64,000 nt of DNA from Bacilli bacterium (lineage in GTDB: Bacteria; Bacillota_I; Bacilli_A; RFN20; CAG-826). Location of the stretch: positions 4,740-68,739 of the forward strand of contig JAKSVH010000006.1 in NCBI GenBank assembly GCA_024408085.1, read 5' to 3'. Under the pieces are notes generated by a model. It did no database searches. It saw only the letters and a list, made by a program, of their open reading frames with translations, and had not been told where the DNA came from. This document shows, one piece after another, positions 4,412-64,000 of this stretch. Position 1 is the first letter of the stretch, and each line of letters starts with the position of its first letter. Made by a program: the position numbers and the translations under genes.

Positions 4412-4412
4412 T

Positions 4413-11336: not shown

Positions 11337-11339
11337 TAT

Positions 11340-25222: not shown

Positions 25223-25236
25223 AAAGAGAATTAAAA

Positions 25237-38000: not shown

Positions 38001-38376
38001 ATCACTCTCATTAGTGGTTAGCTGCTTCATGATTGCAGTTATTACATACATCTCAGTTGTTGAACGTATTAAAGAAATTGGCGTTATTCGTTCACTTGGT
38101 GGTCGTAAACGCGATGTTGCAAGCTTGTTCGTTATGGAAAACTTGTTAACAGGTTTATTCTCTGGATTGTTCGGTATTGCCTTTACATATGTTATTCAAA
38201 TCGTATTAAATGCTGCATTGTATGCTGCATATGGCGTTGTAATTGCACACTTCACAATTGGAACAGCTGCAATAATGGTTGGTGTTTCAGTACTCCTTAG
38301 CGTATTAAGTGGTGCTATTCCATCACAAAGTGCTGCACATAAAGATCCAGTTGTTGCATTGCGCACAGCAGAATAA
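35083..38376 (+). CDS. Fused ABC transporter ATPase + large extracytoplasmic domain + FtsX/MacB-type permease
   Basis: GGAGGG RBS is present. Motifs are Walker A GASGCGKTT, signature LSGGQCQRV and Walker B LLADEPT. There is a TM segment near aa 280, a soluble region of about 650 aa, and a C-terminal FtsX-like 3-TM module (IGVIRSLGGRKRDV). Confidence 0.8.
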   Translation: MLELKNIVKDYVSGNNVTHALKGISVNFRKNEFVSILGASGCGKTTTLNIIGGLDRYTSGDLIINGKSTKNYTDRDWDTYRNHSIGFIFQTYNLIGHQNILKNVELALTISGVGKAERRARALEALKKVGLEGMEKKKPNQLSGGQCQRVAIARALVNNPEILLADEPTGALDSETSVQIMDLLKEVAADRLVIMVTHNPDLAYKYSTRIIKMSDGVLIDDSMPFDGKEETKSADVVEEVAPESNECSKGKKKRTSMSLLTATGLSLSNLKSKMKRTVLVTIAGSIGIIGVSAVLSVSKGVKEFIGEMQNDMLSAYPVQISEQSVDMTSLMSGLNAQDAKEHFVFDEEDPKIGVDSMINYLMTAYSDITKVKTNTIDKKLVSYVDSIPQDSVAVITKNYAIDPTNNIFGAWKDDSLVPAGEKAEDHPELVKNRHMSFNGLTQRYIAELKTVKEFSAYASYVDLFTGFMKKMPNNNDYINSQYDVLAGDTLNPGRDDLVLVVDKNTTLTDLVLAQIGVFNHNEFLNIANCAIEENEYKKKPEYNTDSPEVRRQKIEDIRNAHPYRKEFKYEDLIGREFTYFPESEIYEDETEIATAEKTYSVTSVMMNGGEMERLIYLNSQKIANVNVLYGVTVYKHESVWESEQIAAVCMNPTIQADDVSSLTGLWLALDAQDLMSVASMSDEQRAAFLPTHLKFALSLNPNGAGNMFFPTFESLTTFAGVKPITPEFSTQITPIKGCAYNAQVDDSWLTNIEAHKGRKMKISAILRLRPDKRFGCLDRGLYYTSAFSDSYIQDASSGLVTGKMKDHISNPTTRDTEFKAYVKFDYFSDETKTMVTGGYASSLNGDLSSSFSDLFSGLTGVNYNETNQLHLRSLSGLKTITNKGPGDATTITFDKLPKSISIYPKSFGDKDVITKHLDRWNEDVEITVNVDGTDIKLAKNQRDELSYTDTIQIIVTVITTLIDAITIALVVFTSLSLVVSCFMIAVITYISVVERIKEIGVIRSLGGRKRDVASLFVMENLLTGLFSGLFGIAFTYVIQIVLNAALYAAYGVVIAHFTIGTAAIMVGVSVLLSVLSGAIPSQSAAHKDPVVALRTAE

Positions 38377-48091: not shown

Positions 48092-48942
48092 AGAAAATCC
48101 TCTCAAAAACATACATTTATTTAGTTTTACTTTTAATGTATCTTCCTATTTTAGTTTTAATTGCATTCTCGTTTTCTGGAGTTACCTCTATTGGTGATAC
48201 TGTTGCAGAGGGAGAAAGCTGGTTCTCAACAATCTATTGGCAAAACTTATTTAGTGATACAAAGATTGCAGGAGAAATTTGGACTGCACTCGGAAATACA
48301 TTAATTGTTGCAGTTGTTTCAGCAATTGTTGCAACTATTTTAGGCACATTGGGTGCCATCGGTGCATTCTATTCTAGAAAGAAAGCTCAAAAAGCAATTG
48401 AAGTAACGACTCAGATTCCAGTTTCTAATCCAGAAATTGTTATTGCACTTTCATTAGTTGTTATGTTTGTTGCTATTGGCATTGAATTTAACTTCTGGAC
48501 CTTACTTGTTGGTCACGTAATCCTTGGATTACCATTTGTCTATTTGTCAGTTAGACCTAAATTACAACAAATGGATCCACACCTTTATGAAGCGGCACTT
48601 GATTTAGGTGCAACTCCAAGACAAGGTTTATTTAAAGTTATTATTCCAGAAATTATGCCTGGTATCTTATCAGGATTCTTACTTTCAATTACATTGTCAT
48701 TAGATGACTTTATTGTTACCGCATTTACACGTGGTGCAGGATTACTCTCTGGAGACAAAACAATTGAAACATTATCAACTTTGATACAATCAAAGCTTAA
48801 AAAAGGACCTATTCCACCAGAAATGCGTCCATTAACACTCATTATTTTCCTTGCAGTTCTTGCTGTCGCTATCGGCGTTACAGTTTATAAGAACAAACAA
48901 GCTAATGCCGTAAGAGTGAGAAAGGGGAGAGCAAATGTCTAA
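48085..48942 (+). CDS. potC: Spermidine/putrescine ABC transporter permease
   Basis: The EAA loop is YEAALDLGATPRQGLFKVIIPEIMPG. Confidence 0.8.
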   Translation: MVKKILSKTYIYLVLLLMYLPILVLIAFSFSGVTSIGDTVAEGESWFSTIYWQNLFSDTKIAGEIWTALGNTLIVAVVSAIVATILGTLGAIGAFYSRKKAQKAIEVTTQIPVSNPEIVIALSLVVMFVAIGIEFNFWTLLVGHVILGLPFVYLSVRPKLQQMDPHLYEAALDLGATPRQGLFKVIIPEIMPGILSGFLLSITLSLDDFIVTAFTRGAGLLSGDKTIETLSTLIQSKLKKGPIPPEMRPLTLIIFLAVLAVAIGVTVYKNKQANAVRVRKGRANV

Positions 48943-50770
48943 GATTAGAAAAATTACTCCATTTTTACCAGTTGCTCTTTTTGCAGTAGCTGCCCTTTCT
49001 GGATGCTCTAATGATTCTGGTTCAAAGAGAGTTCTCAGAGTATTAAACTCTGAAGACTACATCTATGAATGCGAACAAAATGAGTACTGGTGTGATGAAT
49101 GTGAAGACTATATCGATGAAAAATTAGTCAAGGAAACCGAAGTTGATGGCGAAGTAGTTCATTACCATGTTGTAAACGAAACTCACCAAGTCGAATTCGA
49201 TGAAGAAGAGTCTGTTTGGTATTGCGATGAATGTGAAGATGAAGTAGACGAGGCTGACGTTAAAGAAGGCCAAGATGAAGCTGGTTCATTCAATTATCAC
49301 AATGCTGAAGTAGAACATGAAGTCTACATGGACATGGATATGATTGATCAATTTGCCGAATACTGGGCCGATACTCATGACGGTGAAGAAATTAAAGTTA
49401 TCTACGATACATTCGATACAAATGAAACAATGTTCAATGAACTTAAGACCGGAAAGACTACATACGATATTTGTATTCCTTCTGATTATATGATTCAAAA
49501 GTTATACGCTAACGACATGCTTCATAAGTTTGTTATTAGAGATGAAATTTGGGAAAACATTTCACCATTTATTGAGTCAACTTATAAAAAGATTGAAGCG
49601 ACAAACATGAATGATAATGTCACAGCTTCAATGAAAGATTACTCAGTTCCATACATGTGGGGCACAATGGGTGTAATGTATAACCCAAGTTACTATGTAA
49701 ATAACAAAGGTGTTACTGAAGACGAAATTCATGAATTGATGAATGATTGGAATTCACTTTATGGCGAAGTCTTGCAAGGTTCATTCTCAATCAAGGATTC
49801 TGTACGTGATACATTCGCAGTTTCATTAATCCATACTTATGCTGAAGAAATTGCAAATACTACCGATCATGATGAATTAACTGCAATTTTCAATCGTCAT
49901 GAAGATAAGACTTTTGAAGAAGTTAAGGTAGACATGAATAAGCTAAAAGAAAATGCTTTTGGTTTTGAAACAGACTCAGGTAAAACTGATATGACCACTC
50001 AAAAGATTGGTGCTAACATGTGTTGGAGTGGTGATGCAACCTGGGCAATTACTGAAGCTAGAGACAATGATTTAGAGCTTTATTACACAATTCCAACCAG
50101 CTACAAAGGTGAGGAAGATGCGAGTGCTTCTAACTTATGGTTTGACTGCTTCTGTATGCCTAAAAACGCTAAAGACGAAGCAAATCAAACCGTAGAAGAG
50201 ATGGCGCAATACGAATTAGCAGAAGAATTTATTAAGTTTATGTGCATGCCAGAAAACGCAATGCAAAACTGTGATTATGTTGGCTATACACCAGCAACTG
50301 GTGGCGATGCAATGCTTGATTACATGTATTGCTGCTATGACGTTCGTGGTGAAGTTGGTGCAGAATTCATCTATGATGAAGAAACAGGTGAAGAAATCCC
50401 TGTTGAAGACTTAGTTGAAGGTGAAGATTACATTCTTTATGACTTAAGTTATTTCTATGATGGCTCACTTAGTGAGGAATACGTTGATTCGGATGCTGCA
50501 GTTTTATATGCTGATCCAGATTACGTTGGTAGAGAATTAAGTGCTCAATATCCATTAGTTGAAACGCTTGATAGATGTGCAATTATGAATGATATGGGCA
50601 ATGTTGCGACTGGAAAACTTCTCGATATGTGGGAATCAGTTCGTACTAATAAACTTCCAACTTGGGGCATTGTGGTAATTTCTATTGAAGTTGCAGCAGC
50701 CTTAGGATTAGTTGCTTACTTTGTAACTAAAAAAGTAACAAGAAAGAAACTTAAAAAAGGACGTATTTAA
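48935..50770 (+). CDS. potD: PotD-like polyamine-binding lipoprotein with acidic Cys/His-containing insert and C-terminal TM anchor
   Basis: Lipobox is ALSGCS. The PotD-like core includes VLNSEDYI...IKVIYDTFDTNETMFNELKTG..YDICIPSDYMIQKL and YMWGTMG. A duplicated W.CDECED...YH module spans aa 44-130. The C-terminus is WGIVVISIEVAAALGLVAYFV followed by KK-rich residues. Confidence 0.7.
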   Translation: MSKIRKITPFLPVALFAVAALSGCSNDSGSKRVLRVLNSEDYIYECEQNEYWCDECEDYIDEKLVKETEVDGEVVHYHVVNETHQVEFDEEESVWYCDECEDEVDEADVKEGQDEAGSFNYHNAEVEHEVYMDMDMIDQFAEYWADTHDGEEIKVIYDTFDTNETMFNELKTGKTTYDICIPSDYMIQKLYANDMLHKFVIRDEIWENISPFIESTYKKIEATNMNDNVTASMKDYSVPYMWGTMGVMYNPSYYVNNKGVTEDEIHELMNDWNSLYGEVLQGSFSIKDSVRDTFAVSLIHTYAEEIANTTDHDELTAIFNRHEDKTFEEVKVDMNKLKENAFGFETDSGKTDMTTQKIGANMCWSGDATWAITEARDNDLELYYTIPTSYKGEEDASASNLWFDCFCMPKNAKDEANQTVEEMAQYELAEEFIKFMCMPENAMQNCDYVGYTPATGGDAMLDYMYCCYDVRGEVGAEFIYDEETGEEIPVEDLVEGEDYILYDLSYFYDGSLSEEYVDSDAAVLYADPDYVGRELSAQYPLVETLDRCAIMNDMGNVATGKLLDMWESVRTNKLPTWGIVVISIEVAAALGLVAYFVTKKVTRKKLKKGRI

Positions 50771-55144: not shown

Positions 55145-55897
55145 ATGCCTCAAAATTTAGGTGCTCAAGTTGAGCTTAACTTTGTGTACGAAATACACGA
55201 TCACAAATTTAAAGATTTAAGTCGCAATTTACAGTATTTCGTGCGATACATCTTTCCTCATGTCAAAGATGAGGATCGTCTTCAATGCTTTAAAACTGAA
55301 GACTACATTAAACCAGATATTTGTATTCAATGGACCGACAAAATGGCCTTTGTTTCAATTAAGTCTGGAGTTTCCGATACCATTCATGGTGAATCGCTAG
55401 TTTCATTTAATAACTTTTTAAGGACTCTTGGAGTAGAAGAAAGAGTTATTAAGACAATTTTGTTATTTGCGTATGGCGATGGTACAACCGATGGTTCTGG
55501 TACAAAACGTAAAAACGGAATGGAAATTCGTTATGAATTAAAAGACGAGATCGAATACTTGAATCTAAGGCTTAACGAAAGCAAAGAATTAGTTAAAGCA
55601 GTAGTGAATCGTCTTTTGTTCGAAGGTGTCGATCCTTTCGCATACAAAGCTCAGTATATTTACCATGGCAATACGGAATACGGTGATTTCATTTCAAAAA
55701 ATCAAGTATTAAAACATATTGATCGTAAAAACTGGGATTTTATGGATTGCCCGCATATCGGGCCTATTGTGTTTAGACCACATGCTAGATATTCAGGTAA
55801 AGAAATTCTTAATGAAAAATTTAGAAATGAATTAAAATTCACATGGCCAAACCTATTGTCAGATATTCGCTACATTTCTAAACGCTACAATTTCTAA
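55145..55897 (+). CDS. Hypothetical protein, possibly PD-(D/E)xK nuclease / restriction-endonuclease-like
   Basis: GGAGG RBS is present. YIKPDICIQW....AFVSIKSG could be a PD...(S/E)xK core. No methyltransferase lies nearby, and the assignment is weak. Confidence 0.3.
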   Translation: MPQNLGAQVELNFVYEIHDHKFKDLSRNLQYFVRYIFPHVKDEDRLQCFKTEDYIKPDICIQWTDKMAFVSIKSGVSDTIHGESLVSFNNFLRTLGVEERVIKTILLFAYGDGTTDGSGTKRKNGMEIRYELKDEIEYLNLRLNESKELVKAVVNRLLFEGVDPFAYKAQYIYHGNTEYGDFISKNQVLKHIDRKNWDFMDCPHIGPIVFRPHARYSGKEILNEKFRNELKFTWPNLLSDIRYISKRYNF

Positions 55898-55971
55898 TTT
55901 CAATTCACTTCTATAAAACAAGCAAGACCAAGTCTTGCCTTTTCTCGTTAACTTCAACTTAATTGATTCAT

Positions 55972-58086
55972 ATGAAATGGAATCATTCAAAAGTTAACGA
56001 GCTGCTTTTTTCCTTCTTAGAAGAAAAAACATTTTACAAACAATATTATAAATATTATCCTTATAGCATACGCGAATTGAAAGATACCCCTAAAAAGGTA
56101 TTATTAGGAGTGAGTATGTATCCAGAATATGAAAAGATAAATAATCTATTCAATAGATGTGATGAATTAGATAAAACAAACAAAGAATTTAAAGACATTT
56201 TCGAGTTTGCTTTTTCTTTTAGAAAAAATAACGTTGCAGCATACTTTTTCGATGCCAAGAAAAAGCTTTGCAAAATGAAATACAAAGATGTTGAAGCAGA
56301 AATCTATAGAGTTGCTCCAAAAATTGCAAAACTTATTAATGGCAAAAAAGATGATCTTGTAGTACTTAAAATTGCCAACTCAGTTTATTGGATTGAATAC
56401 TTTTATGCTACATTAATGGCAGGTTATCGCGTTTTATTACTCGATGCAAAGGCCAGCAAAGATGCAACTGATAACATCATTAAACAAACCGGTGCAGTTG
56501 GTATTGTTTGTAATGAAGACGTTGATTATCCAGTAGCAAAAGCCACAACAAGATCCATTAATGGTATGGAAGATATTGAAGGTTTTACACCAAATTGGGC
56601 TAACGAAGTTACATTCTGTTCAAGCGGAACTACTGGACAAGCTAAATTAGCAGTTTATACAGGCGAAAATATGGTCAACCAAATTAAGGCTTGTAAAGGT
56701 ATGCCACTTCAAACCAAAACAATCATGTACACACATGACATGGGCGTTGTAAATATTCTTTCAATGATTCCATTCCATCACGTTTTTGGTTTCGTTGCAG
56801 TTTTCTTATGGTATTCAAGCTGGGGTAGTGCAATGGTCTTTCCAAGCTCATTAGCCCCATCAGATATCAAATTAATCTGTCAAAAAGTAGGAGTAACCCA
56901 CGTCTATAGCGTGCCATTATTCTGGAACTCACTTACAAAGGAACTAGAAAGAAAAGTTTCAACTCAACCTGCAGATAAACAATTAATGATTAAAGCATTG
57001 ATTGATGTCAATTTAGGTAAGCCAGATGCTAAATGCAAGCACAAAAAGACAGTTGAGAAAGTAGTTAAAAAGAGCATATTAGGAAATAAAGTTAAATTCT
57101 GTATTTCTGGTGGTGGATTCCTTCCTCAACGTACATTAGAAGTAATAAACGGTATTGGTTATCCTTTATATAACGGCTATGGCATGACCGAAGTTGGTGT
57201 TACATCAGTTGAATTATCCGCTGATGTTAAAGATCGTCTTAAATCATCAATTGGTATGCCACTTAACCAAGTCGAATACAAGATTGATAATCCAGACTCA
57301 TTTGGGGAGGGTGAATTGCTCATTAAATCACCATATACCCATGTTAGAGAAATAATAGGCGGGGTCCAAAAGCCTGCTACGCTTGATAAAGATGGCTACT
57401 TCCATACAGGTGATATTGTTAGAAAAGATGAAGATAATCGTTTCTATATTAAAGGTAGAATTAAAGATGTAATTATTAACGCAAATGGCGAAAACATCTA
57501 TCCTGATGAACTTGAATTACATTTTAAAGGCTTAAATCACGTTAATAATTATTCTGTCTTAGGCGTTAAAAAGAATGAAAACGAACAAAGTATCGTTATT
57601 GTCCTTGAAGTTGATAACTGTGTCAATAATGAAGAAGCTGATCAACTCGTCGAAAAGATTAAAACAACTGAGCTTCCAGGTGGCGCAAGAATTGATGATG
57701 TTTACTTTGCAAAAGGTAAGCTTCCAGTTAGTAGCAGTTTAAAGGTAAAACGCTTTGAAATTAAAGATGCAATTGAACGTAAAACAAATCTATACTTCAA
57801 AGTTGATAATCTTGAAGCTGAAGAAGAAGTAGTGTTTGATCAAAAAACAATTGACGAAATTGTTAATCCATTAAGAAAAATATTTGCAAGAGTCTTAAGC
57901 TTATCTGAGTTTAAAATTCACAATAACGATCACTTTATTAATGACTTAGGTGGTGACTCATTGTTGTTCGTTGAGCTCTGCCAAGAAGTTGCAATTAAGT
58001 TTAACCTTGATATTCCAACTGAAGATTACATTAAACTCACATCAATTAACGACTTCACAAAAGAAATTGTTAAGATTAAAAAGTAA
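55972..58086 (+). CDS. AMP-dependent synthetase/ligase (adenylation domain) fused to a C-terminal phosphopantetheine carrier domain
   Basis: Adenylation motifs are FCSSGTTGQAKLAV, GYGMTE and YFHTGDIVRKDEDNRFYIKGRIKDVI, plus a terminal K (LKVKRF). The carrier motif is DLGGDSLLFVEL. The start is uncertain: ATG 55972 lacks a clear RBS, and an alternative ATG 56116 has an AGGAG RBS. Confidence 0.75.
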   Translation: MKWNHSKVNELLFSFLEEKTFYKQYYKYYPYSIRELKDTPKKVLLGVSMYPEYEKINNLFNRCDELDKTNKEFKDIFEFAFSFRKNNVAAYFFDAKKKLCKMKYKDVEAEIYRVAPKIAKLINGKKDDLVVLKIANSVYWIEYFYATLMAGYRVLLLDAKASKDATDNIIKQTGAVGIVCNEDVDYPVAKATTRSINGMEDIEGFTPNWANEVTFCSSGTTGQAKLAVYTGENMVNQIKACKGMPLQTKTIMYTHDMGVVNILSMIPFHHVFGFVAVFLWYSSWGSAMVFPSSLAPSDIKLICQKVGVTHVYSVPLFWNSLTKELERKVSTQPADKQLMIKALIDVNLGKPDAKCKHKKTVEKVVKKSILGNKVKFCISGGGFLPQRTLEVINGIGYPLYNGYGMTEVGVTSVELSADVKDRLKSSIGMPLNQVEYKIDNPDSFGEGELLIKSPYTHVREIIGGVQKPATLDKDGYFHTGDIVRKDEDNRFYIKGRIKDVIINANGENIYPDELELHFKGLNHVNNYSVLGVKKNENEQSIVIVLEVDNCVNNEEADQLVEKIKTTELPGGARIDDVYFAKGKLPVSSSLKVKRFEIKDAIERKTNLYFKVDNLEAEEEVVFDQKTIDEIVNPLRKIFARVLSLSEFKIHNNDHFINDLGGDSLLFVELCQEVAIKFNLDIPTEDYIKLTSINDFTKEIVKIKK

Positions 58087-58202
58087 ATCAAATAGGAAAA
58101 TGCTTATTTTATTAAAAATAGGCGTTTTTTTATTATGAATTTTTAAATATTTTGCTTATATATTTTAAATGTGATAACATTTCGGCGTATAAGGAGACTA
58201 AT

Positions 58203-59057
58203 ATGAGCAAATACATCGTATTATTCAATGGAAAAGCCGATAATGGCACAGGATTAGAAAATGCTAAAAAGTTGCAAGACATGCTCAAGGACGATGAACT
58301 TGAATATGTTGATTTAGTCGGCAAAGATGATTTCGCAGCTTTAGTTAAAGGCTACGCAAAAGATCAAAAATTTATTCTCTCTGGTGGTGATGGAACAATT
58401 AACTACTTCATTAACCACATTGATGAAAAGGATATTCCAGAAAGTTTCTATTATTATCCAGCAGGTACAGGTAACGACTTTTACCACGATATCTCTGAAA
58501 GAGAAAATAGCAATGGCATTATCCAAATTAATAAATATTTAAAGAACCTTCCAGTTTGTGAAGTTAATGGCAAAACCTACAAGTTCTTAGACAATGTTGG
58601 TTATGGTATTGATGGTTACTGCTGTGAAGCTGCAGACATTTTAAAGGCAAAGAAGCCAAATAAACCAATTAACTACACAGGTATTGCTATTAAAGGTTTA
58701 CTTTTCCACTTCTCAAACAAGACTGCAAAAGTCACAGTTGATGGAAAAGAATATAACTTCAAACACGTCTGGCTTGCACCAGTCATGAAAGGCAAATACT
58801 ATGGTGGTGGTATGATTCCATGTCCAGCACAAGACAGAAATAGCGATACACTTTCAGTATTAGTCTGGCATCAAAGAGGTCGCTTAGGAACATTAATTAA
58901 CTTCCCAAATATCTTTAAGGGTGCACACCTAAAGAACAAAAAACACTGTGAAGTGCTCACAGGTAAACACATTGTTGTTGAATTCACAAAGCCATGTGCT
59001 GCACAAGTAGATGGTGAAACTGAATTAAACGTTTCAAAAATTGAATGTAAAGCTTAA
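58203..59057 (+). CDS. Diacylglycerol-kinase-like (DAGK_cat) lipid kinase family protein
   Basis: The AAGGAG RBS precedes ATG 58203. Motifs are ILSGGDGTINYF and PAGTGNDF. Confidence 0.7.
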   Translation: MSKYIVLFNGKADNGTGLENAKKLQDMLKDDELEYVDLVGKDDFAALVKGYAKDQKFILSGGDGTINYFINHIDEKDIPESFYYYPAGTGNDFYHDISERENSNGIIQINKYLKNLPVCEVNGKTYKFLDNVGYGIDGYCCEAADILKAKKPNKPINYTGIAIKGLLFHFSNKTAKVTVDGKEYNFKHVWLAPVMKGKYYGGGMIPCPAQDRNSDTLSVLVWHQRGRLGTLINFPNIFKGAHLKNKKHCEVLTGKHIVVEFTKPCAAQVDGETELNVSKIECKA

Positions 59058-59863
59058 TGAACAAAAACAGAAGAATACACTATCGACACGTTCACGCATT
59101 ACGAGATCTATCGACTTGTTTTAACTTTGCTGGTGTCAAAATTAAAAAAGGCGTCTTCTATAGAAGCGGCTATTTAGGCAAGCTTTCTGCACTTCAAGCA
59201 AAAGAGTTTGTTGAAAATTTTAATATTGGCTACGTTATTGATCTTAGAACAACAGCAGAGAAAGAAAATGCCCCTGATATGTATTCTGACTTAGTTCAGT
59301 ATTATCACATTCCAGTTTTAAATGAATTTGATAATCCACTCATCACTAAGAAAAATAGAACCGGCATCTTACTTGATATCACTAAAAACAAAGGTGGTGC
59401 AGTTAAGTATCTAGAAAGAGTTTACCGCAAAATGGTTAGCGATGAACAATGCTTAGCGCAGTTTAAAAAGATATTTGATTTAATCATTAACAAAAAAGAT
59501 GATAAGGCTATTGTTTTCCATTGTACTCAAGGAAAAGATAGAACCGGTGTTTTAGCCGCCTTAATCCTTTATGCCTTAGGTGTTGACAAAAAGAGTATTT
59601 ATACTGACTACAAACGCTTTAACAACGCATACAGGTTTAAAAACTTCTTAATTTCATTGGTAGTTGCTATTAGATTTATGTCTTTTAGAGTTTCAAAAGA
59701 TCTCTATTATTTACAAATGGCCCACAAGAAACTAATTATTGCAACATTTGATGAAATCAAATCGAATTATATAGATCGTTATGATTTCTTTAAGAAAGCA
59801 TTGGACATTAGTGGTGATGACATTAACCAAATGCGTAGAATGTATTACGTAAAGGAGCAATAG
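59057..59863 (+). CDS. Protein-tyrosine-phosphatase-fold (Y_phosphatase3) phosphatase
   Basis: The CX5R active site is HCTQGKDRTG. It has a TAATG overlap with the upstream gene. Confidence 0.7.
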   Translation: MNKNRRIHYRHVHALRDLSTCFNFAGVKIKKGVFYRSGYLGKLSALQAKEFVENFNIGYVIDLRTTAEKENAPDMYSDLVQYYHIPVLNEFDNPLITKKNRTGILLDITKNKGGAVKYLERVYRKMVSDEQCLAQFKKIFDLIINKKDDKAIVFHCTQGKDRTGVLAALILYALGVDKKSIYTDYKRFNNAYRFKNFLISLVVAIRFMSFRVSKDLYYLQMAHKKLIIATFDEIKSNYIDRYDFFKKALDISGDDINQMRRMYYVKEQ

Positions 59864-59864
59864 T

Positions 59865-60719
59865 ATGGTAAAAATTGTTTTGTTACTTCTATCATTCGGA
59901 TTATCTACTATGACAACTTTGCTTCTTCATTTCAATGAAGCGTGGAAGATTGCAATAGGTATTATTGGCTTTGGTTTAGCATTCATGGTTGCTATTGTTT
60001 TCTTGTATTTTATGTTTGCTGTTATTGCAACAATTACAGTAAGCAGAAAGAAAGCACCAGTTAAATATGGTCCAGGCTATCGTAAATTATTTAATTTAGA
60101 CTCACTTATTTTATTATCACTTTTTGGTGTTAGATTAACTGTTAACGGTTTAGATAAGATTCCAAATGATGATAACTTTGTTTTATTTCAAAATCACTTA
60201 AGTAATGTTGATCCAATTTACACAAATTATGTGCTAAGAAAATATCCGTTAATCTTCGTTTCAAAAGCCTCGTTGTTCAAGATTCCTTTCTTTGGAAAAA
60301 CAATACAAGGCATAGGCTATATCAAATTATTGCGTGATTCCAGCATGAACGATGCTAGTGAATTAATCCGTGCTGTTAGATGGGTTAGAGCAGGAGAGTG
60401 CTCGCTGGCAGTTTACCCTGAAGGAACAAGAAACAAGAATTATCCAAATCCAGTTTTACTTGATTACAAAGAACCAATTCTCGGTATTGCAAAAAAAGCT
60501 GAAAAACCTATTGTTATTAGCGCGATTCACGGAACTGATAAAATCAATCATAAACTTTTGTTTAAAGTTCATGAAATTCAAATCGATTTTCTTGCAGTAA
60601 TTAAACCTGAAGAGTACAAGGATTTGACTCAAGAAGAGCTATCTGAAAAAGTTAGAAAAATCATGCTTGATGGCATTGAACATCCATTAGATAAGAAAGA
60701 AAAAGTTCGATTATACTAA
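59865..60719 (+). CDS. 1-acyl-sn-glycerol-3-phosphate acyltransferase family (PlsC-like)
   Basis: There are two N-terminal TM segments. The HX4D motif is NHLSNVDP and YPEGTR is present. Confidence 0.8.
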   Translation: MVKIVLLLLSFGLSTMTTLLLHFNEAWKIAIGIIGFGLAFMVAIVFLYFMFAVIATITVSRKKAPVKYGPGYRKLFNLDSLILLSLFGVRLTVNGLDKIPNDDNFVLFQNHLSNVDPIYTNYVLRKYPLIFVSKASLFKIPFFGKTIQGIGYIKLLRDSSMNDASELIRAVRWVRAGECSLAVYPEGTRNKNYPNPVLLDYKEPILGIAKKAEKPIVISAIHGTDKINHKLLFKVHEIQIDFLAVIKPEEYKDLTQEELSEKVRKIMLDGIEHPLDKKEKVRLY

Positions 60720-60730
60720 GACGAATTAGA

Positions 60731-60757
60731 AAAAGGCATCCAAAGGTTGCCTTTTTT
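60731..60757 (+). terminator. Intrinsic terminator
   Basis: AAAAGGCA-(9 nt)-TGCCTTTT is followed by TTATT. Confidence 0.6.
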
Positions 60758-60805
60758 ATTTGCCTATGTAGTGTAGGTGTAGTAAAATAAATACGGTGAA
60801 AATCT

Positions 60806-62110
60806 ATGATTGATTACGATTTAGCTCTGTGGATCGTTGGTTCAGTTTCAACCTTCATGGTTCTCTTTACAATTTTGTTGTCATTGTATTACTTGACATA
60901 CTTTTTTACTGCAAGAAGAAAAGTTGCACCAGTTCCAGCAAGCGAAAATTACACAAAGTTCGGGGTAATTATTGCTGCACGTAACGAAAGTAAAGTCATT
61001 AGAAATATTTTTATTGCTCTTAAAAACCAAACTTATCCAAAAGAGCATTACGATGTATGGATTGTTGTTGAATCGTTCGACGATCCATCCATTAAAATTG
61101 CGGAAGAATTTGGATACAAGTGGTTTGTACGTGATAGATTAACCGACGAAAGAAGAACCAAAGGCTTTGCTTTACAAGAAATTATTGATTACTTCCAACG
61201 TGAAAACATCATTTATGATGCTTATATGATTTTTGATGCCGATAACGTTATGGAGCCAAACTTCATTGAACTCATGAATAATTTAAGACAAACAGGGGTT
61301 AAAGTTGGTTCTGGTTATCGTAATTTTACCAACGTCAACGTTAACTGGTTAACTTCAACAAGCGCCGTTATGTTTGCTTACATGAATCAAGTTACTTCTA
61401 AAGGAAGATCTTACTTATTCCACAAAGCAACATTAATGGGTACTGGTTATTATGTTGATAAGTCAATTATTGACGATGCAGGTGGTTGGATTTTTACAGG
61501 AATGACTGAAGATATTCAACTCACTTCTTATTGTTATTACCACGACGTTAATATGCGTTACTATCCTGACGCTGTTTTCTATGATGAACAATCACCAAAG
61601 ATGAAACAAGTTCATGATCAACACGTTAGATGGCTTGCCGGATTCTTTGCATCTAGACGCTACCTTAAAAAGTGTGGTGTATTCTATGAATACCATAAAG
61701 GCCCAAAGAAAGCTTTAATGCGTTCTGAATTTAAGGTGGGTATTCTTCCATTCATCATTTATAACATCATTAATGCTTTACTTTTCTTAACATCACTTGG
61801 CTTAGCATTAGGTGCTACATTTACAAGAAAAGAAGTGGACATGATTTGGAGATGCTGGGGCATCACGATTTATGAGTTCTTGTGTTTATATTTACCATTT
61901 GTTGTTGCATCTTTATATATCATTATTTCTGAACGTAAAAAACTACATATGAAGCCACATATAGCAATTGTTTGTACTGCAACATACTTCATTTTCTTCT
62001 ATGATTTCCTAGTTGCATTCCTTGATTTAGGTTTCCATAAATCTAAACGTCATAAGTGGGTTCAAATTGAGCACACTGGTAAAACAGAAAAGGAAAAGAA
62101 AAATGAATAA
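60806..62110 (+). CDS. Membrane-embedded family-2 glycosyltransferase with processive-type Q-x-x-R-W motif
   Basis: Motifs are FGVIIAARNES, the DxD-type MIFDADN, TEDIQLT and QHVRW (Q..RW). An N-terminal TM segment and several C-terminal TM segments are present. Confidence 0.75.
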   Translation: MIDYDLALWIVGSVSTFMVLFTILLSLYYLTYFFTARRKVAPVPASENYTKFGVIIAARNESKVIRNIFIALKNQTYPKEHYDVWIVVESFDDPSIKIAEEFGYKWFVRDRLTDERRTKGFALQEIIDYFQRENIIYDAYMIFDADNVMEPNFIELMNNLRQTGVKVGSGYRNFTNVNVNWLTSTSAVMFAYMNQVTSKGRSYLFHKATLMGTGYYVDKSIIDDAGGWIFTGMTEDIQLTSYCYYHDVNMRYYPDAVFYDEQSPKMKQVHDQHVRWLAGFFASRRYLKKCGVFYEYHKGPKKALMRSEFKVGILPFIIYNIINALLFLTSLGLALGATFTRKEVDMIWRCWGITIYEFLCLYLPFVVASLYIIISERKKLHMKPHIAIVCTATYFIFFYDFLVAFLDLGFHKSKRHKWVQIEHTGKTEKEKKNE

Positions 62111-62897
62111 GGATTGGAAAAAGACTCGCACCATTTATTGGCATGATGAACTTCACGATGATTTTGATCAAATCCTTTCAAAACGTCCACCTTTAACACC
62201 AGGTTACAAATTCATACGTTCTAAAGCTTGTAACTTCTTCGGTAATATTTTATATTACGGAATTGCACTTCCTGTGCTCGCAATCATTTCATATTTAAGT
62301 GGAATGAAGGTAAAGGGAAGAAAGAATTTAAAGGCAATTAAGAAGACTGGTGCTTTTATTTATTCAAACCATGTTTCGGTTCCAGATGTCTATAAAATGG
62401 CATCTCCTGTTTGCTATGGAAAAAGAGTAAACATCCTAGGCTATACCGATTCTTTGTCGGTTCCAGTGCTTAGAACAGTAGTTAAACAATTGGGCTTTTT
62501 GCCACTTCCATTAGGACCAGATCTTGAAAATAAAGCAGCATTAGTGGAAGCTATGCGCTATTACATTCACAAAAAACATCAAATTGTTGTTATTTATCCA
62601 GAAGCTCACATCTGGCCTTACTACACCAAAATTCGTAACTTCAAAGTTCAAACCATGAAGTACCCAGCCATTATAAATGCTCCAGTACTTCCTGTTGTAA
62701 CTGTTTGGAGAAAAGTGTGGTGGTCTAAAAAGCCAAAACAAACAGTTAAAATTGGCAGCGTAATCATGCCAAATCCAGAGTTAAATCAAGAGGACAATAT
62801 TAACTACCTTTACGAAGAATGTCTCTCACAAATGAGAGCACTCTCTGAATGTGAAAAACAATACGAATACATTAAATACATTAAGGTTGAAAAATAA
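62103..62897 (+). CDS. Lysophospholipid acyltransferase family protein (PlsC-like, second copy)
   Basis: The start was chosen at MNKDWKK, which overlaps the GT2 stop by 8 nt. The HX4D motif is NHVSVPDV and YPEAHIW (PE-type motif) is present. Confidence 0.65.
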   Translation: MNKDWKKTRTIYWHDELHDDFDQILSKRPPLTPGYKFIRSKACNFFGNILYYGIALPVLAIISYLSGMKVKGRKNLKAIKKTGAFIYSNHVSVPDVYKMASPVCYGKRVNILGYTDSLSVPVLRTVVKQLGFLPLPLGPDLENKAALVEAMRYYIHKKHQIVVIYPEAHIWPYYTKIRNFKVQTMKYPAIINAPVLPVVTVWRKVWWSKKPKQTVKIGSVIMPNPELNQEDNINYLYEECLSQMRALSECEKQYEYIKYIKVEK

Positions 62898-63048
62898 TTA
62901 ATAAATTACTTTTCTTCACAAAATAATCGAAAAGAGGAAACTATGTTTCCTTTTCTTTTCATTTAAAAATATGTATTTTAATCTATTAAGTATTAATATA
63001 TACTTATTTCGATTATAGGCATTTTTAAAAAATAAGTCAGGATTTACT

Positions 63049-64000
63049 ATGGGTAAGAAATTAAGTTTCTTCGACAGATTCAAAGATTCACTTCTTGATA
63101 AAGATAAATACATTAGATTAGTTCGTTTAATTGCATATGTTGCACTTTTAGTTGTTGCACTTTTTATGACAGTTTTAAATGTCGTTCAATATGGAATTAC
63201 CGATCCTCTTACTTTAACAACTGGTATTTTCTCAATTGCCCTTATTCCAGATTTTTTACTTACATATTTCTCAAAAACAGGTAGAAAAATTGCAGCAGTA
63301 TTATTCTTCCTTGAATTTATTGCAATGTTTGCAATGTTCTTATACACAGGTAAGCCTGAGGGCTTCTCTGCTATTTGGATTGCTCTTGTTCCGATCGCTT
63401 GTATGATTTTCTATGGAAGAAAGATTGGCTCAATGGTTACTGGAGTAATGTTTATAATTCTTGCCTTAGCATTCTATACACCTCTTGGAAAAATGGCAGG
63501 AATGTATCCAGATTATACCCAAACATTTAAAGTTAGATTCCCAATCCTATATGTTGCTTTCTATTTAATTGCTTTGTTCCTTGAATCCATTCAACAATAT
63601 CAATTCCAAGCTCTTGAGGAAGTTAACGCTATTAATGAAGGTTACTCAACTCACGATGGATTAACTGGTTTATTTAACCGTAAGGGTTTCTATGATTTAC
63701 TTGAATCTGAATTAAAAACCAGAACCTATAGCAAAATCGGTTTTATTGTCTTTGATATTGACTTCTTTAAGAAATTAAACGATACGTATGGTCACTTAGC
63801 TGGTGACGAAGTTCTTATTGAACTTTCTCATATTATTAAAGAAAAGCTCGGAAATTCACTTGCCGCATGTCGATGGGGTGGTGAAGAGTTCCTTGTTTGT
63901 TACGTTGACGAACAAATTAAGAAAGCTGATCTAGAAGAATTTAGAATGGCTGTCCAAAACCATGAGTTCATTTTTAATGATAAAGTTATGAAAACAACAA
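63049..64000 (+). CDS. Membrane-bound diguanylate cyclase (GGDEF domain); 3-prime partial, absent from the ORF track because it runs off the window
   Basis: My own translation from ATG 63049 gives about 5 TM segments. These are followed by DGLTGLFNRKGF, FDIDFFKKLNDTYGHLAGDEVL and RWGGEEFLV. Confidence 0.85.
   Translation, partial: MGKKLSFFDRFKDSLLDKDKYIRLVRLIAYVALLVVALFMTVLNVVQYGITDPLTLTTGIFSIALIPDFLLTYFSKTGRKIAAVLFFLEFIAMFAMFLYTGKPEGFSAIWIALVPIACMIFYGRKIGSMVTGVMFIILALAFYTPLGKMAGMYPDYTQTFKVRFPILYVAFYLIALFLESIQQYQFQALEEVNAINEGYSTHDGLTGLFNRKGFYDLLESELKTRTYSKIGFIVFDIDFFKKLNDTYGHLAGDEVLIELSHIIKEKLGNSLAACRWGGEEFLVCYVDEQIKKADLEEFRMAVQNHEFIFNDKVMKTT

What the first reader, a model, noticed from the sequence alone, without database searches (positions are those of the whole stretch)
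55972..62897. Clustered lipid-remodelling module: adenylation-carrier fusion, DAG-kinase-like, PTP-fold phosphatase, two PlsC-type acyltransferases and a processive GT2
Six consecutive same-strand genes combine six elements. (i) A 705-aa AMP-ligase with its own C-terminal phosphopantetheine carrier (GGDSL). (ii) A DAGK_cat lipid kinase-like protein. (iii) A CX5R phosphatase of the Y_phosphatase3 fold (HCTQGKDRTG), a fold that is known to act on phospholipid head groups in some systems such as PTPMT1. (iv) A PlsC acyltransferase (NHLSNVDP, YPEGTR). (v) A membrane GT2 with Q..RW. (vi) A second HX4D acyltransferase. The pairing of an acyl-activating enzyme with acyltransferases recalls the bifunctional E. 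coli Aas (acyl-ACP synthetase/lysophospholipid acyltransferase). That would suggest a self-contained route for loading exogenous fatty acids, or another carboxylic acid, onto a private carrier and building or re-acylating a glyco- or phospholipid. I do not recognise this gene combination as a described pathway. Terminator-like hairpins after the ligase (about 58101-58137) and after plsC (60731-60757) suggest up to three transcription units, so co-function is inferred from clustering only.
Basis: partly seen in the sequence, partly recalled or inferred. Interest (0 to 1): 0.65.

Follow-up and report, generated by a model that had tools for sequence, protein, structure and literature searches.

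The report
Three adjacent membrane-lipid gene modules
The six genes are real and all look like membrane-lipid enzymes, but they are three separately inherited and separately terminated units placed side by side in one gut-bacterial lineage, and the most interesting unit is a widely conserved kinase-phosphatase-acyltransferase trio that nobody seems to have described.

Summary
Two starts need correcting: the ligase begins at 56116 (656 aa) and the kinase at 58203.

Comparative genomics splits the cluster into three units:
- **A. Ligase with fused carrier (adenylation + ACP).** It adjoins the lipid genes only in close relatives (at least 80-84% identity). At 48-65% identity it sits alone between a Metallophos_2 gene and rpsT. 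At 56% it lies beside unrelated ABC genes.
- **B. DAGK_cat kinase, PtpB-type "atypical lipid phosphatase" (HCTQGKDRTG) and PlsC.** This trio is tightly packed and recurs in Firmicutes down to about 30% identity.
- **C. Membrane GT2 plus a second acyltransferase.** The GT2 resembles hyaluronan and cellulose synthases. The HX4D acyltransferase lacks the EGTR motif. This pair is conserved, and in other Bacilli MAGs it follows PAP2 phosphatase genes.

Two hairpins followed by U-runs, conserved in relatives, fall exactly on the A|B and B|C boundaries.

My best reading is that B is a phosphatidate/diacylglycerol node, C makes an acylated glycolipid or lipoglycan, and A is a self-loading acyl carrier linked only loosely to the rest. 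All biochemistry is inferred. A DltA identity is rejected.

The parts
55922..55938 (+). Terminator-like hairpin that closes the upstream type II restriction-enzyme-like gene (55145-55897). It marks the 5' boundary of the region.
   Evidence: Terminator scan. Fold -8.7 kcal/mol, z -3.5. The upstream ORF matches PADLOC REase_II at 6e-17.
56077..56104 (+). Promoter-like site (TTGAAA-16-TATTAT, 10 of 12) just upstream of the corrected ligase start.
   Evidence: This is a consensus match only, and promoter-like sites are not enriched in the region overall.
56116..58086 (+). Unit A: a 656-aa adenylate-forming enzyme (ANL class I) with a C-terminal phosphopantetheine carrier domain.
   Evidence: Pfam. 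Core motifs SSGTTG, YGMTE, TGD, GRxKD, the A10 Lys and carrier GGDS are invariant in 34 homologs. AlphaFold model pLDDT 85. Foldseek top hits are McyG A-PCP, MenE, MatB, 4CL, V. harveyi AasS and FadD13.
58096..58129 (+). Hairpin followed by a U-run. Candidate intrinsic terminator between units A and B.
   Evidence: -13.1 kcal/mol, z -5.0, with 0 of 200 shuffles as stable. Conserved in L001 (-17.9) and L008 (-16.9). The simple terminator scan missed it because the stem is AT-rich.
58203..59057 (+). Unit B, gene 1: soluble lipid-kinase-like protein (DAGK_cat + YegS_C, GGDGT motif). It is a second paralog beside the DAGK_cat gene at 11340-12200.
   Evidence: Pfam and NCBIfam TIGR00147 (67.7 bits, below the cut-off). 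PDB hits are B. anthracis DAG kinase/BmrU at 1.4e-6. It is 27% identical to the other paralog.
59057..59863 (+). Unit B, gene 2: cytoplasmic PTP-fold phosphatase of the PtpB-like 'atypical lipid phosphatase' type, with P-loop HCTQGKDRTG.
   Evidence: Y_phosphatase3 1.1e-44. PDB hits 8dhi and MptpB 1ywf. The P-loop is invariant. It fits the signature HCXXGKDR[TA]G of PMC3091653. A hydropathy scan found no strongly hydrophobic N-terminal or TM-like segment. Its start overlaps the kinase stop by 1 nt.
59865..60719 (+). Unit B, gene 3: PlsC-type 1-acylglycerol-3-phosphate acyltransferase with hydrophobic N-terminal segments, NHLSNVDP and YPEGTR.
   Evidence: (5kym, 5e-10). It starts 1 nt after the phosphatase stop.
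60729..60757 (+). Hairpin followed by a U-run. Candidate intrinsic terminator or attenuator between units B and C.
   Evidence: -13.4 kcal/mol, z -3.2. The stem is kept with loop changes in L001 and L008. It is absent in L013, where PlsC and GT2 are 3 nt apart.
60806..62110 (+). Unit C, gene 1: membrane-integrated GT2 (one N-terminal and several C-terminal hydrophobic helices) with DxD, TED and QxxRW motifs.
   Evidence: Pfam. Invariant D144/D146, E235/D236 and Q272/R275/W276. Model pLDDT 88. Foldseek top hits are Chlorella virus hyaluronan synthase (TM up to 0.68) and BcsA. Hydrophobic segments.
62103..62897 (+). Unit C, gene 2: HX4D acyltransferase (NHVSVPD) with an invariant YPEAHIWPY in place of the EGTR block and one hydrophobic helix. 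It overlaps the GT2 stop by 8 nt.
   Evidence: Pfam 3.9e-07. Motifs in five orthologs. No PDB sequence match.
62929..62960 (+). Terminator-like hairpin with a U-run that closes unit C, before the MASE6-GGDEF gene (63049 onward).
   Evidence: -11.7 kcal/mol, z -3.7. Conserved in L001 and L008. GGDEF domain.

Best explanation
The region is a mosaic of three membrane-lipid units. They evolve and are probably transcribed separately, and they were brought together in this lineage of gut 'Bacilli' MAGs.

**Unit B (kinase, PtpB-type lipid phosphatase, PlsC)** is the deeply conserved core. I infer that it controls the phosphatidate/diacylglycerol node.
- PlsC makes phosphatidate from lysophosphatidate.
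- The cytoplasmic PTP-fold phosphatase removes the lipid phosphate, most likely converting phosphatidate to diacylglycerol.
- The DAGK_cat kinase runs the reverse step or salvages acylglycerols.

**Unit C (hyaluronan/cellulose-synthase-like GT2 plus a coupled HX4D acyltransferase)** builds, and perhaps exports, a glycan or glycolipid at the membrane and acylates it.
- The acyltransferase lacks the EGTR block. In AGPATs the Arg of that block is reported to contact the acceptor phosphate (from memory). A non-phosphorylated acceptor is therefore plausible.
- In relatives, PAP2 phosphatases occupy the position that unit B occupies here. This fits unit B supplying the dephosphorylated lipid acceptor.

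**Unit A** adenylates a carboxylic acid, probably a fatty acid, and loads it onto its own carrier domain for hand-off to a partner enzyme. In this lineage the partners may be the two acyltransferases.

**Shown versus inferred.** The gene content, motifs, folds, synteny patterns and hairpins are shown. All substrates, the direction of flux and the A-to-B/C hand-off are inferred.
For: **Modularity**
- Ligase contexts.
- GT2-acyltransferase pair with PAP2 in L010-L012.
- Five genes without the ligase in L013; the trio alone in L014 and L015.

**Metagenome sample**
- 14 loci carry the phosphatase subfamily. Seven have the kinase adjacent.
- PlsC follows in four of those seven. Of the other three, L025 has a different downstream gene, and L021 and L027 run off the contig.
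- Five of the 14 lack the kinase and two are uninformative.
- None of the other 66 Y_phosphatase3 loci, which score lower against the subfamily profile, has a kinase or PlsC in the sequence fetched (up to 7 kb each side).
- In a neighbour-joining tree the unlinked loci form one derived, higher-GC subclade.

**Packing and boundaries**
- Overlaps or gaps inside units B and C are 1-8 nt in the window; gaps or overlaps within the trio are 2-5 nt in L013-L015.
- Conserved hairpins with U-runs lie exactly at A|B and B|C.

**Enzyme identities:**

**Lipid-phosphatase precedent**
- The HCXXGKDR[TA]G enzymes MptpB and Lmo1800 dephosphorylate phosphoinositides in vitro (PMC3091653).
- PGP phosphatase in Firmicutes, Clostridia and Mollicutes is already assigned to the HAD enzyme PgpP (PMC11804483). 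That leaves phosphatidate as the more open substrate.

**Other lipid context for the trio**
- L025 reads acyl-ACP thioesterase, kinase, phosphatase, LPG_synthase_TM.

**Carrier hand-off logic for unit A**
- Homologs at 30-36% identity over the adenylation and carrier domains are fused to an alpha-oxoamine synthase domain. This held for 6 of the 6 proteins of 1,061-1,097 aa that I tested.
Against: - No substrate is established for any of the six proteins.
- A kinase and a phosphatase on the same lipid would form a futile cycle unless regulated.
- The phosphatase family also acts on phosphotyrosine and phosphoinositides in vitro, so a protein or soluble substrate is not excluded.
- The trio's kinase scores below NCBIfam cut-offs for every named lipid kinase.
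- Five phosphatase-subfamily loci have no kinase nearby.
- The GT2 fold is that of polysaccharide synthases, not of characterised diacylglycerol glycosyltransferases. PAP2 enzymes can also act on undecaprenyl pyrophosphate.
- The ligase's nearest structures include non-fatty-acid ligases such as MenE, MatB and 4CL. The fused AOS domain scores highest against the BioF model, so a dicarboxylate or other acid is possible.
- Only 64 kb of the genome was seen. The presence of FASII, PlsX/PlsY, FakAB, other PlsC genes or a phosphopantetheinyl transferase is unknown.
Confidence: 0.55

Rival explanations
1. All six genes form one self-contained pathway. The ligase loads exogenous fatty acid onto its private carrier and feeds both acyltransferases (Aas/AasC-LpaT-like) to build or re-acylate a glyco- or phospholipid.
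For: - The six-gene order is kept in L001 and L008.
- The ligase is acyl-CoA/acyl-ACP-synthetase-like, with AasS among its structural neighbours.
- PlsC-type enzymes of Firmicutes use acyl-ACP (established knowledge).
- C. trachomatis encodes an acyl-ACP synthase (CT776) and a lysophospholipid acyltransferase (CT775) that act together in fatty-acid scavenging; the consecutive locus numbers suggest adjacent genes (PMC5693948).
Against: - The ligase is unlinked to any lipid gene in four more distant species.
- The five other genes cluster without it in L013.
- A conserved hairpin with a U-run separates it from the kinase.
- Its relatives hand off to alpha-oxoamine synthases rather than acyltransferases.
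Confidence: 0.2
2. Unit C is an exopolysaccharide synthase of the PgaC/IcaA/HasA/BcsA type. Its polymer is O-acylated by the neighbouring acyltransferase and controlled by c-di-GMP from the adjacent MASE6-GGDEF and EAL genes. On this view unit C has no functional tie to unit B.
For: - Foldseek top hits are hyaluronan and cellulose synthases, and the DxD/TED/QxxRW set is complete.
- GGDEF and EAL genes lie directly downstream in the window and in L008.
- In L010-L012 a small protein with two hydrophobic helices follows the acyltransferase. Its topology is reminiscent of PgaD/IcaD.
Against: - No PilZ domain was found in the GT2.
- GGDEF and EAL are absent next to the pair in L010-L013.
- The partner is a PlsC-family (lipid-type) acyltransferase, not an Acyl_transf_3 or MBOAT polysaccharide O-acyltransferase.
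- Lipid phosphatases (PAP2 or unit B) always precede the pair. In L013, PlsC and GT2 are 3 nt apart.
Confidence: 0.2
3. The Y_phosphatase3 protein is a protein tyrosine or dual-specificity phosphatase with a regulatory role, and its position next to lipid genes has no biochemical meaning.
For: - The family is annotated as tyrosine phosphatase.
- Family members such as Lmo1935 prefer peptide substrates (PMC3091653).
Against: - Linkage to a DAGK_cat kinase, with gaps of a few nucleotides, persists down to about 30% identity and is specific to this subfamily.
- No tyrosine kinase was seen in any of the contexts listed.
Confidence: 0.1
4. The ligase-carrier fusion is a DltA-DltC type D-alanyl carrier system for teichoic-acid alanylation.
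For: Only the adenylation-plus-carrier architecture fits this idea.
Against: - No DltA model appears among the best 25 NCBIfam hits.
- No DltA structure appears among 60 phmmer hits, 30 profile hits or 50 Foldseek hits.
- No MBOAT (DltB) or DltD gene appears in any of the ligase neighbourhoods examined. No such domain was reported for the 52 window ORFs I scanned against Pfam, which covers most but not all ORFs.
Confidence: 0.02

Closest known systems
E. coli Aas, and C. trachomatis AasC (CT776) with LpaT (CT775)
   Same: An adenylate-forming acyl-activating enzyme is encoded with a PlsC-family acyltransferase for re-use of fatty acids (PMC5693948; Aas from established knowledge).
   Different: - Aas fuses the acyltransferase to the synthetase and uses free AcpP.
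- Here the carrier, not the acyltransferase, is fused to the ligase.
- The genes are separated by a terminator.
- The linkage exists only in close relatives.
Dedicated acyl-ACP synthetase plus specialised ACP (AcpR) feeding serine palmitoyltransferase in Rhodobacteria
   Same: It uses a private carrier loaded by a dedicated ligase, then hands off to one partner enzyme (PMC9386255). Homologs of the window's ligase-carrier protein are fused to an alpha-oxoamine synthase domain of the same superfamily.
   Different: - The window protein has no AOS domain.
- No AOS gene turned up among the 52 window ORFs scanned against Pfam.
- The fused forms are only 30-36% identical.
Atypical lipid phosphatases (MptpB, L. 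monocytogenes Lmo1800)
   Same: They share the Y_phosphatase3 fold and the exact P-loop signature HCXXGKDR[TA]G.
   Different: - Known members are studied as effectors acting on host phosphoinositides, and their native role is stated to be unknown (PMC3091653).
- This protein shows no N-terminal hydrophobic segment in a simple hydropathy scan, so it is probably cytoplasmic.
- It comes from a commensal MAG.
- It is embedded between a lipid kinase and PlsC.
Soluble DAGK_cat lipid kinases (DgkB, YegS, BmrU, Rv2252)
   Same: It has the two-domain DAGK_cat/YegS_C architecture and the GGDGT motif.
   Different: - It scores below every curated NCBIfam cut-off.
- It is a second paralog beside a more typical DAGK_cat gene at 11340-12200.
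Membrane-integrated processive GT2 synthases (hyaluronan synthase, BcsA, PgaC/IcaA, NodC)
   Same: It shares the fold, size class (about 430 aa), hydrophobic-helix pattern and the DxD/TED/QxxRW motifs.
   Different: - It has 13-15% identity to solved structures.
- No PilZ domain was found.
- It scores far below the NCBIfam cut-offs for EpsU and PgaC.
- It is always paired with a PlsC-family acyltransferase and preceded by lipid phosphatase genes.
Yeast Pah1/Dgk1 phosphatidate-diacylglycerol switch (functional analogy only)
   Same: A phosphatidate phosphatase and a diacylglycerol kinase jointly set the PA/DAG balance (established knowledge).
   Different: The protein families are unrelated, and the analogy is untested here.

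Membership tests
ANL adenylate-forming superfamily (class I, acyl-CoA/acyl-ACP synthetase-like) | Core motifs A3 (S/T-GTTG), A5 (YGxTE), A7 (TGD), A8 (GRxKD) and the A10 Lys, with a two-domain fold. | tested here: met
   All motifs are invariant in 34 homologs. Pfam AMP-binding 2.6e-39. The model resembles MenE, MatB, AasS and FadD13.
Phosphopantetheine carrier domain (ACP/PCP) | PP-binding domain with a conserved Ser in (L)GxDS. | tested here: met
   PF00550 7e-10. LGGDS is conserved, with Ser615 invariant. PDB ACP hits 3gzl and 2fq0. Actual phosphopantetheinylation was not tested, and no PPTase was found in the window by tblastn with the ACPS of L005.
Fatty acyl-AMP ligase (FAAL) | FAAL-specific insertion that blocks CoA use, and grouping with FAAL structures. 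| tested here: inconclusive
   No FAAL appears among 50 Foldseek, 60 phmmer or 30 profile hits. The A5-A7 spacing (about 74 aa) shows no obvious extra segment, judged by eye only. No explicit alignment with FAALs was made.
DltA/DltC D-alanyl carrier system | DltA-type adenylation domain, with dltB (MBOAT) and dltD nearby. | tested here: not met
   No DltA model or structure appears among the top hits. No MBOAT or DltD gene was seen in any ligase neighbourhood examined.
E. coli Aas bifunctional enzyme | PlsC-type acyltransferase domain fused to an acyl-ACP synthetase domain, with ACP supplied in trans. | tested here: not met
   The ligase carries a carrier domain and no acyltransferase domain. 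The acyltransferases are separate genes.
DAGK_cat / YegS-BmrU lipid kinases | DAGK_cat plus YegS_C domains, the GGDGT nucleotide-binding motif, and lipid kinase activity. | tested here: inconclusive
   Both domains pass Pfam cut-offs and the motif is present. TIGR00147 scores 67.7 bits against a cut-off of 118.65. Activity and substrate were not testable.
Atypical lipid phosphatases (PtpB-like, Y_phosphatase3) | P-loop HCXXGKDR[TA]G. | tested here: met
   HCTQGKDRTG is invariant in 32 homologs. The signature is as defined in PMC3091653.
Atypical lipid phosphatases (PtpB-like, Y_phosphatase3) | Phosphatase activity on lipid phosphates. | not testable with these tools
   This needs an enzyme assay.
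PlsC / AGPAT (gene at 59865-60719) | HX4D (block I) and EGTR (block III). | tested here: met
   NHLSNVDP and YPEGTR are conserved in four orthologs. 5kym at 5e-10. TIGR00530 domain hit.
PlsC / AGPAT (gene at 62103-62897) | HX4D (block I) and EGTR (block III). | tested here: not met
   HX4D is present (NHVSVPD), but block III is an invariant YPEAHIWPY without the Arg in five orthologs. No PDB match. It belongs to the wider PF01553 family only.
Processive membrane GT2 (cellulose/hyaluronan/PNAG/chitin-oligosaccharide synthase type) | GT-A domain with D, DxD, TED and QxxRW, plus an integral membrane domain. | tested here: met
   Invariant residues. Hydrophobic segments. Foldseek E about 1e-13, TM up to 0.68 to Chlorella virus HAS, and BcsA among the hits.
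c-di-GMP-activated BcsA-type synthase | C-terminal PilZ domain. | tested here: not met
   No PilZ hit in Pfam. The protein ends about 25 residues after the last predicted hydrophobic segment.

The most novel reading that the evidence does not exclude
**Trio.** The DAGK_cat kinase, PtpB-like phosphatase and PlsC trio is an undescribed, widely conserved phosphatidate/diacylglycerol switch of gut and rumen Firmicutes.
- In it, an 'atypical lipid phosphatase' acts as the cell's own soluble phosphatidate phosphatase.
- That would give this enzyme family, known only from pathogen effectors, a housekeeping lipid role.
- It would also supply the diacylglycerol source for glycolipid or lipoglycan synthesis by the GT2-acyltransferase pair.

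**Ligase.** In parallel, the ligase-carrier didomain would be a new kind of acyl-ACP synthetase that loads exogenous fatty acid onto its own carrier in cis.
Probability: 0.2. Interest if true: 0.7.

Novelty: new variant of a known kind. Interest (0 to 1): 0.45.

Why it matters
If the inferred roles hold, three things follow.

- **A native function for PtpB-like phosphatases.** The trio would assign a physiological lipid role to these enzymes. The defining paper states that their biological role is unknown (PMC3091653).
- **A candidate source of diacylglycerol.** It would point to an enzyme for making diacylglycerol from phosphatidate in Gram-positive bacteria. To my knowledge that step is not firmly assigned.
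- **Two testable gene sets in uncultured gut bacteria.** The first is the GT2-acyltransferase pair with its alternative upstream phosphatases (PAP2 or the trio). The second is a very widespread ligase-carrier gene. Its family has 453 clusters at 50% identity with E up to 1e-30, and no source gives it a name. It sits in a housekeeping neighbourhood in three of the four more distant species examined.

None of this changes a paradigm. All six enzymes belong to well-known families.

Tried and rejected
**Ideas tested and rejected or down-weighted**
- **DltA identity for the ligase:** rejected. No DltA appears in the NCBIfam, PDB sequence, PDB profile or Foldseek top lists.
- **FAAL identity:** no support, left inconclusive.
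- **PGP phosphatase as the main role of the PTP-fold enzyme (PTPMT1 analogy):** down-weighted. PgpP, a HAD enzyme, is reported as the main PGP phosphatase in Firmicutes, Clostridia and Mollicutes.
- **c-di-GMP/PilZ control of the GT2:** no PilZ domain, and the GGDEF neighbour is not conserved.
- **The upstream 250-aa ORF as a seventh member:** rejected. It is restriction-enzyme-like and followed by a terminator.

**Searches that led nowhere**
- The genome-contig scan with the single ligase protein returned only the near-identical MAG, so organism names for the distant relatives were not obtained.
- P0121 was not on record in the contig index.
- Literature searches for PDB entry 8DHI, for fused acyl-ACP synthetase-ACP proteins in Firmicutes, and for a kinase/phosphatase/PlsC operon found nothing relevant.

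**Other negative results**
- Neighbours of the ligase in L005 have no counterparts in the window.
- PAP2 and the 150-aa protein with two hydrophobic helices from L010 have no counterpart in the window.

**Tool limitation**
- The simple terminator scan missed both internal hairpins because their stems are AT-rich. Folding recovered them.

Full report
**1. Observation**

The window has about 34% GC. It matches a 'Bacilli bacterium' gut MAG contig at 96%.

Six consecutive + strand ORFs lie between 55963 and 62897.
- AMP-binding plus PP-binding
- DAGK_cat plus YegS_C
- Y_phosphatase3
- Acyltransferase (TIGR00530 domain; T. maritima PlsC 5kym)
- GT2 (Glyco_tranf_2_3)
- a second, weaker Acyltransferase hit

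The quoted motifs are present and conserved in homologs.

Three start codons need correction.
- The ligase most likely begins at ATG 56116, giving 656 aa. All homologs are 655-665 aa, and their first residues MYPE are at least 90% conserved. AGGAG lies 7 nt upstream, and a promoter-like site sits at 56077-56104.
- The kinase begins at ATG 58203, after AAGGAG.
- The second acyltransferase begins at ATG 62103.

The upstream 250-aa ORF is type II restriction-enzyme-like and ends with a terminator. The downstream gene is a MASE6-GGDEF protein. The block therefore has six genes.

**2. The cluster is a mosaic of three units**

*Ligase-carrier gene (unit A).*
- The full six-gene order recurs only in close relatives: L001 (93-97% aa identity) and L008 (81-88%).
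- An 80%-identity relative probably has it too. Its ligase and phosphatase clusters list the same 5,266-bp longest contig.
- At 65% (L005), 51% (L006, L007) and 48% (L002-L004) identity, the gene sits alone in a conserved housekeeping neighbourhood. The order is Metallophos_2, ligase, rpsT. holA, comEC, comEA and greA lie on the other strand, and fmt, a DinG-like helicase and lepA lie upstream.
- At 56% identity (L096) it is followed by convergent FtsX/ABC genes.
- None of these loci carries any of the other five genes within 10 kb.

*GT2 and second acyltransferase (unit C).*
- Orthologs at 47-54% identity (L010-L012) keep the acyltransferase immediately downstream.
- They are preceded by one or two PAP2 phosphatase genes.
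- They are followed by a 150-aa protein with two hydrophobic helices, an ABC/FtsX fusion, a MiaB-like gene and a GH3 gene.
- The window holds the ABC/FtsX ortholog 22 kb away, at 35083-38376. It has no PAP2 or 150-aa counterpart.

*Kinase, phosphatase and PlsC (unit B).*

| Locus | Phosphatase identity | Arrangement |
|---|---|---|
| L013 | 53% | kinase-phosphatase-PlsC-GT2-acyltransferase; no ligase; a DNA_alkylation gene upstream; 3 nt between PlsC and GT2 |
| L014 | 43% | the trio alone |
| L015 | 32% | the trio with kinase and phosphatase swapped |

L015 is Clostridia-like. A ligase homolog probably lies elsewhere on the same 323-kb contig, judged from matching contig lengths.

I then scanned metagenome contigs with a phosphatase alignment and scored the loci with profiles built from these loci. 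The scan returned 80 loci.
- Fourteen loci carry the subfamily (at least 219 bits).
- Seven of these have the kinase adjacent.
- PlsC follows in four of the seven. Of the other three, L025 has a different downstream gene, and L021 and L027 run off the contig.
- Five of the 14 lack the kinase and two are uninformative.
- None of the 66 lower-scoring Y_phosphatase3 loci has a kinase or PlsC in the sequence fetched (up to 7 kb each side).
- In a neighbour-joining tree, kinase-linked loci occupy both deep branches of the subfamily. The unlinked ones form one derived, higher-GC subclade.

Other trio contexts are also lipid- or sugar-related.
- L025 reads acyl-ACP thioesterase, kinase, phosphatase, LPG_synthase_TM.
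- L015, L028 and L029 have an HTH-phosphohexomutase, a hexapeptide protein and a NagB-like protein upstream.

**3. Transcription signals agree with the evolutionary units**

| Position | Energy (kcal/mol) | z-score | Followed by | Separates |
|---|---|---|---|---|
| 58096-58129 | -13.1 | -5.0 | U-run | A from B |
| 60729-60757 | -13.4 | -3.2 | U-run | B from C |

Both values come, and both hairpins are kept in L001 and L008 with loop and stem changes.

Inside the units the genes overlap or nearly touch:
- 1 nt overlap between kinase and phosphatase
- 1 nt gap between phosphatase and PlsC
- 8 nt overlap between GT2 and the second acyltransferase

These units coincide with the three separately inherited modules.

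**4. What each part is**

*Unit A.* This is a class I ANL enzyme with every core motif and a carrier Ser.
- Sequence, profile and structure searches place the adenylation part nearest MenE, FadD13, MatB, 4CL, luciferases and V. harveyi AasS. The whole protein is nearest the McyG A-PCP didomain.
- No DltA or FAAL appears in any top list.
- The family is large. It has 453 representatives at 50% identity with E up to 1e-30, and no source names it.
- About 13 of the top 150 representatives are 1,060-1,134 aa long. All six of those that I tested carry a C-terminal alpha-oxoamine synthase domain (BioF/Kbl/SPT family, below every equivalog cut-off).
- One 1,599-aa homolog carries a class III aminotransferase domain.
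- This shows that the family's carrier hands an acyl group to a dedicated partner. The same logic is described for the specialised ACP and ligase of bacterial sphingolipid synthesis (PMC9386255).
- The substrate and partner of the didomain form remain unknown.

*Unit B.*
- The phosphatase has the exact P-loop HCXXGKDR[TA]G that defines the PtpB-like 'atypical lipid phosphatases'. Members of that family dephosphorylate phosphoinositides in vitro, and their native role is stated to be unknown (PMC3091653).
- A hydropathy scan found no strongly hydrophobic N-terminal or TM-like segment in it.
- The kinase is a divergent YegS/BmrU-type protein. It is a second paralog beside a more typical DAGK_cat gene at 11340-12200.
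- PlsC has HX4D and EGTR.
- PGP phosphatase in Firmicutes, Clostridia and Mollicutes is already assigned to PgpP (PMC11804483). I therefore favour phosphatidate over PGP as the phosphatase's substrate.

*Unit C.*
- The GT2 model (pLDDT 88) matches Chlorella virus hyaluronan synthase and BcsA.
- It has invariant DxD, TED and QxxRW motifs and several hydrophobic helices.
- It has no PilZ domain.
- The coupled acyltransferase keeps HX4D but has an invariant YPEAHIWPY in place of EGTR.
- In AGPAT/GPAT enzymes the Arg of that block is reported to bind the acceptor's phosphate. That point comes from my own knowledge and was not checked here. A non-phosphorylated acceptor is therefore plausible.

**5. 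Most likely mechanism**

- Unit B sets the phosphatidate/diacylglycerol balance. PlsC makes phosphatidate, the phosphatase makes diacylglycerol, and the kinase reverses this or salvages acylglycerols.
- Unit C glycosylates a lipid or primer at the membrane and acylates the product, giving an acylated glycolipid or lipoglycan.
- Unit B sits where PAP2 sits in relatives, and B and C are fused into one operon in L013. Both facts suggest that B supplies the dephosphorylated lipid acceptor.
- Unit A loads an acid, probably a fatty acid, onto its own carrier. In this lineage it may serve the acyltransferases. That link rests only on recent adjacency.
- Every biochemical step here is inference.

**6. 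Comparison with what is known, and novelty**

However, the architecture differs and the linkage is not conserved.

All six proteins belong to known families. I found no description of three things:
- the kinase, PtpB-type phosphatase and PlsC trio
- the phosphatase-GT2-acyltransferase arrangement
- the widespread ligase-carrier didomain with its AOS-fused relatives

I rate the finding as a new variant of known kinds. Interest is moderate. A lipid specialist would find the trio worth testing, but not startling.

Noticed in passing
Proteins P0387, P0404, P0420, P0424, P0440, P0465 and P0477 (homologs of window 56116-58086): Homologs 30-36% identical over the whole ligase-carrier region carry a C-terminal alpha-oxoamine synthase domain (BioF/Kbl/SPT family, about 1,060-1,100 aa in total). 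One 1,599-aa homolog carries a class III aminotransferase domain. These three-domain proteins score below every curated equivalog cut-off.
   Followed up: partly
L002-L007 (ligase orthologs at 48-65% identity): The ligase-carrier gene keeps a fixed housekeeping position: Metallophos_2, ligase, rpsT, next to holA, comEC, comEA, greA, fmt, a DinG-like helicase and lepA. L005 also has an Sfp-sized ACPS gene 5.5 kb downstream.
   Followed up: partly
window 55145-55897: This 250-aa ORF has no Pfam or NCBIfam hit but matches the PADLOC type II restriction enzyme model (6e-17). It is conserved in L001 and L008. I did not look for a partner methyltransferase.
   Followed up: partly
window 10704-12200: A second, more typical DAGK_cat gene lies at 11340-12200. 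It is preceded by a bacterial PH-domain protein at 10704-11336 and is only 27% identical to the cluster's kinase.
   Followed up: partly
window 35083-38376: This 1,097-aa ABC_tran-FtsX fusion is the ortholog (47%) of the gene that follows the GT2-acyltransferase pair in L010-L012. The ancestral neighbourhood appears to have been broken up in this lineage.
   Followed up: partly
window 48935-50770: A solute-binding protein of a PotABCD-like ABC transporter carries two acidic, Cys-rich repeats (W/Y-CDECED-xx-DE) near its N-terminus, ahead of the SBP_bac_8 domain.
   Followed up: no
window 63049-64000, and L008 7997-11056: A MASE6-GGDEF diguanylate cyclase gene lies directly downstream of the cluster, followed by an EAL gene in L008. 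This linkage holds only in the close relatives.
   Followed up: partly
L025 2269-5853: In a 54% GC metagenome contig the arrangement is acyl-ACP thioesterase, DAGK_cat kinase, Y_phosphatase3, LPG_synthase_TM (flippase-like). Here the trio's PlsC is replaced by other lipid genes.
   Followed up: partly
L015 6924-9972, L028 3807-6848, L029 3608-6809: In Clostridia-like loci the trio is preceded by an HTH-fused phosphohexomutase, a hexapeptide-repeat protein and a NagB/Glucosamine_iso-like protein, all on the same strand.
   Followed up: no
L010 12147-12581, L011 5885-6337, L012 12152-12604: A conserved 144-150-aa protein with a soluble N-terminus and two hydrophobic helices follows the GT2-acyltransferase pair. 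It has no Pfam hit, and its topology is reminiscent of PgaD/IcaD. It is absent from the window.
   Followed up: partly
window 25219-27309: This gene encodes a polysaccharide lyase family 8 protein (hyaluronate/chondroitin-lyase type), which fits a host-glycan-degrading gut organism.
   Followed up: no
window 3614-5744: A diadenylate cyclase (DAC domain) gene overlaps a phosphoglucosamine-mutase-like gene in a cdaA-glmM type arrangement.
   Followed up: no
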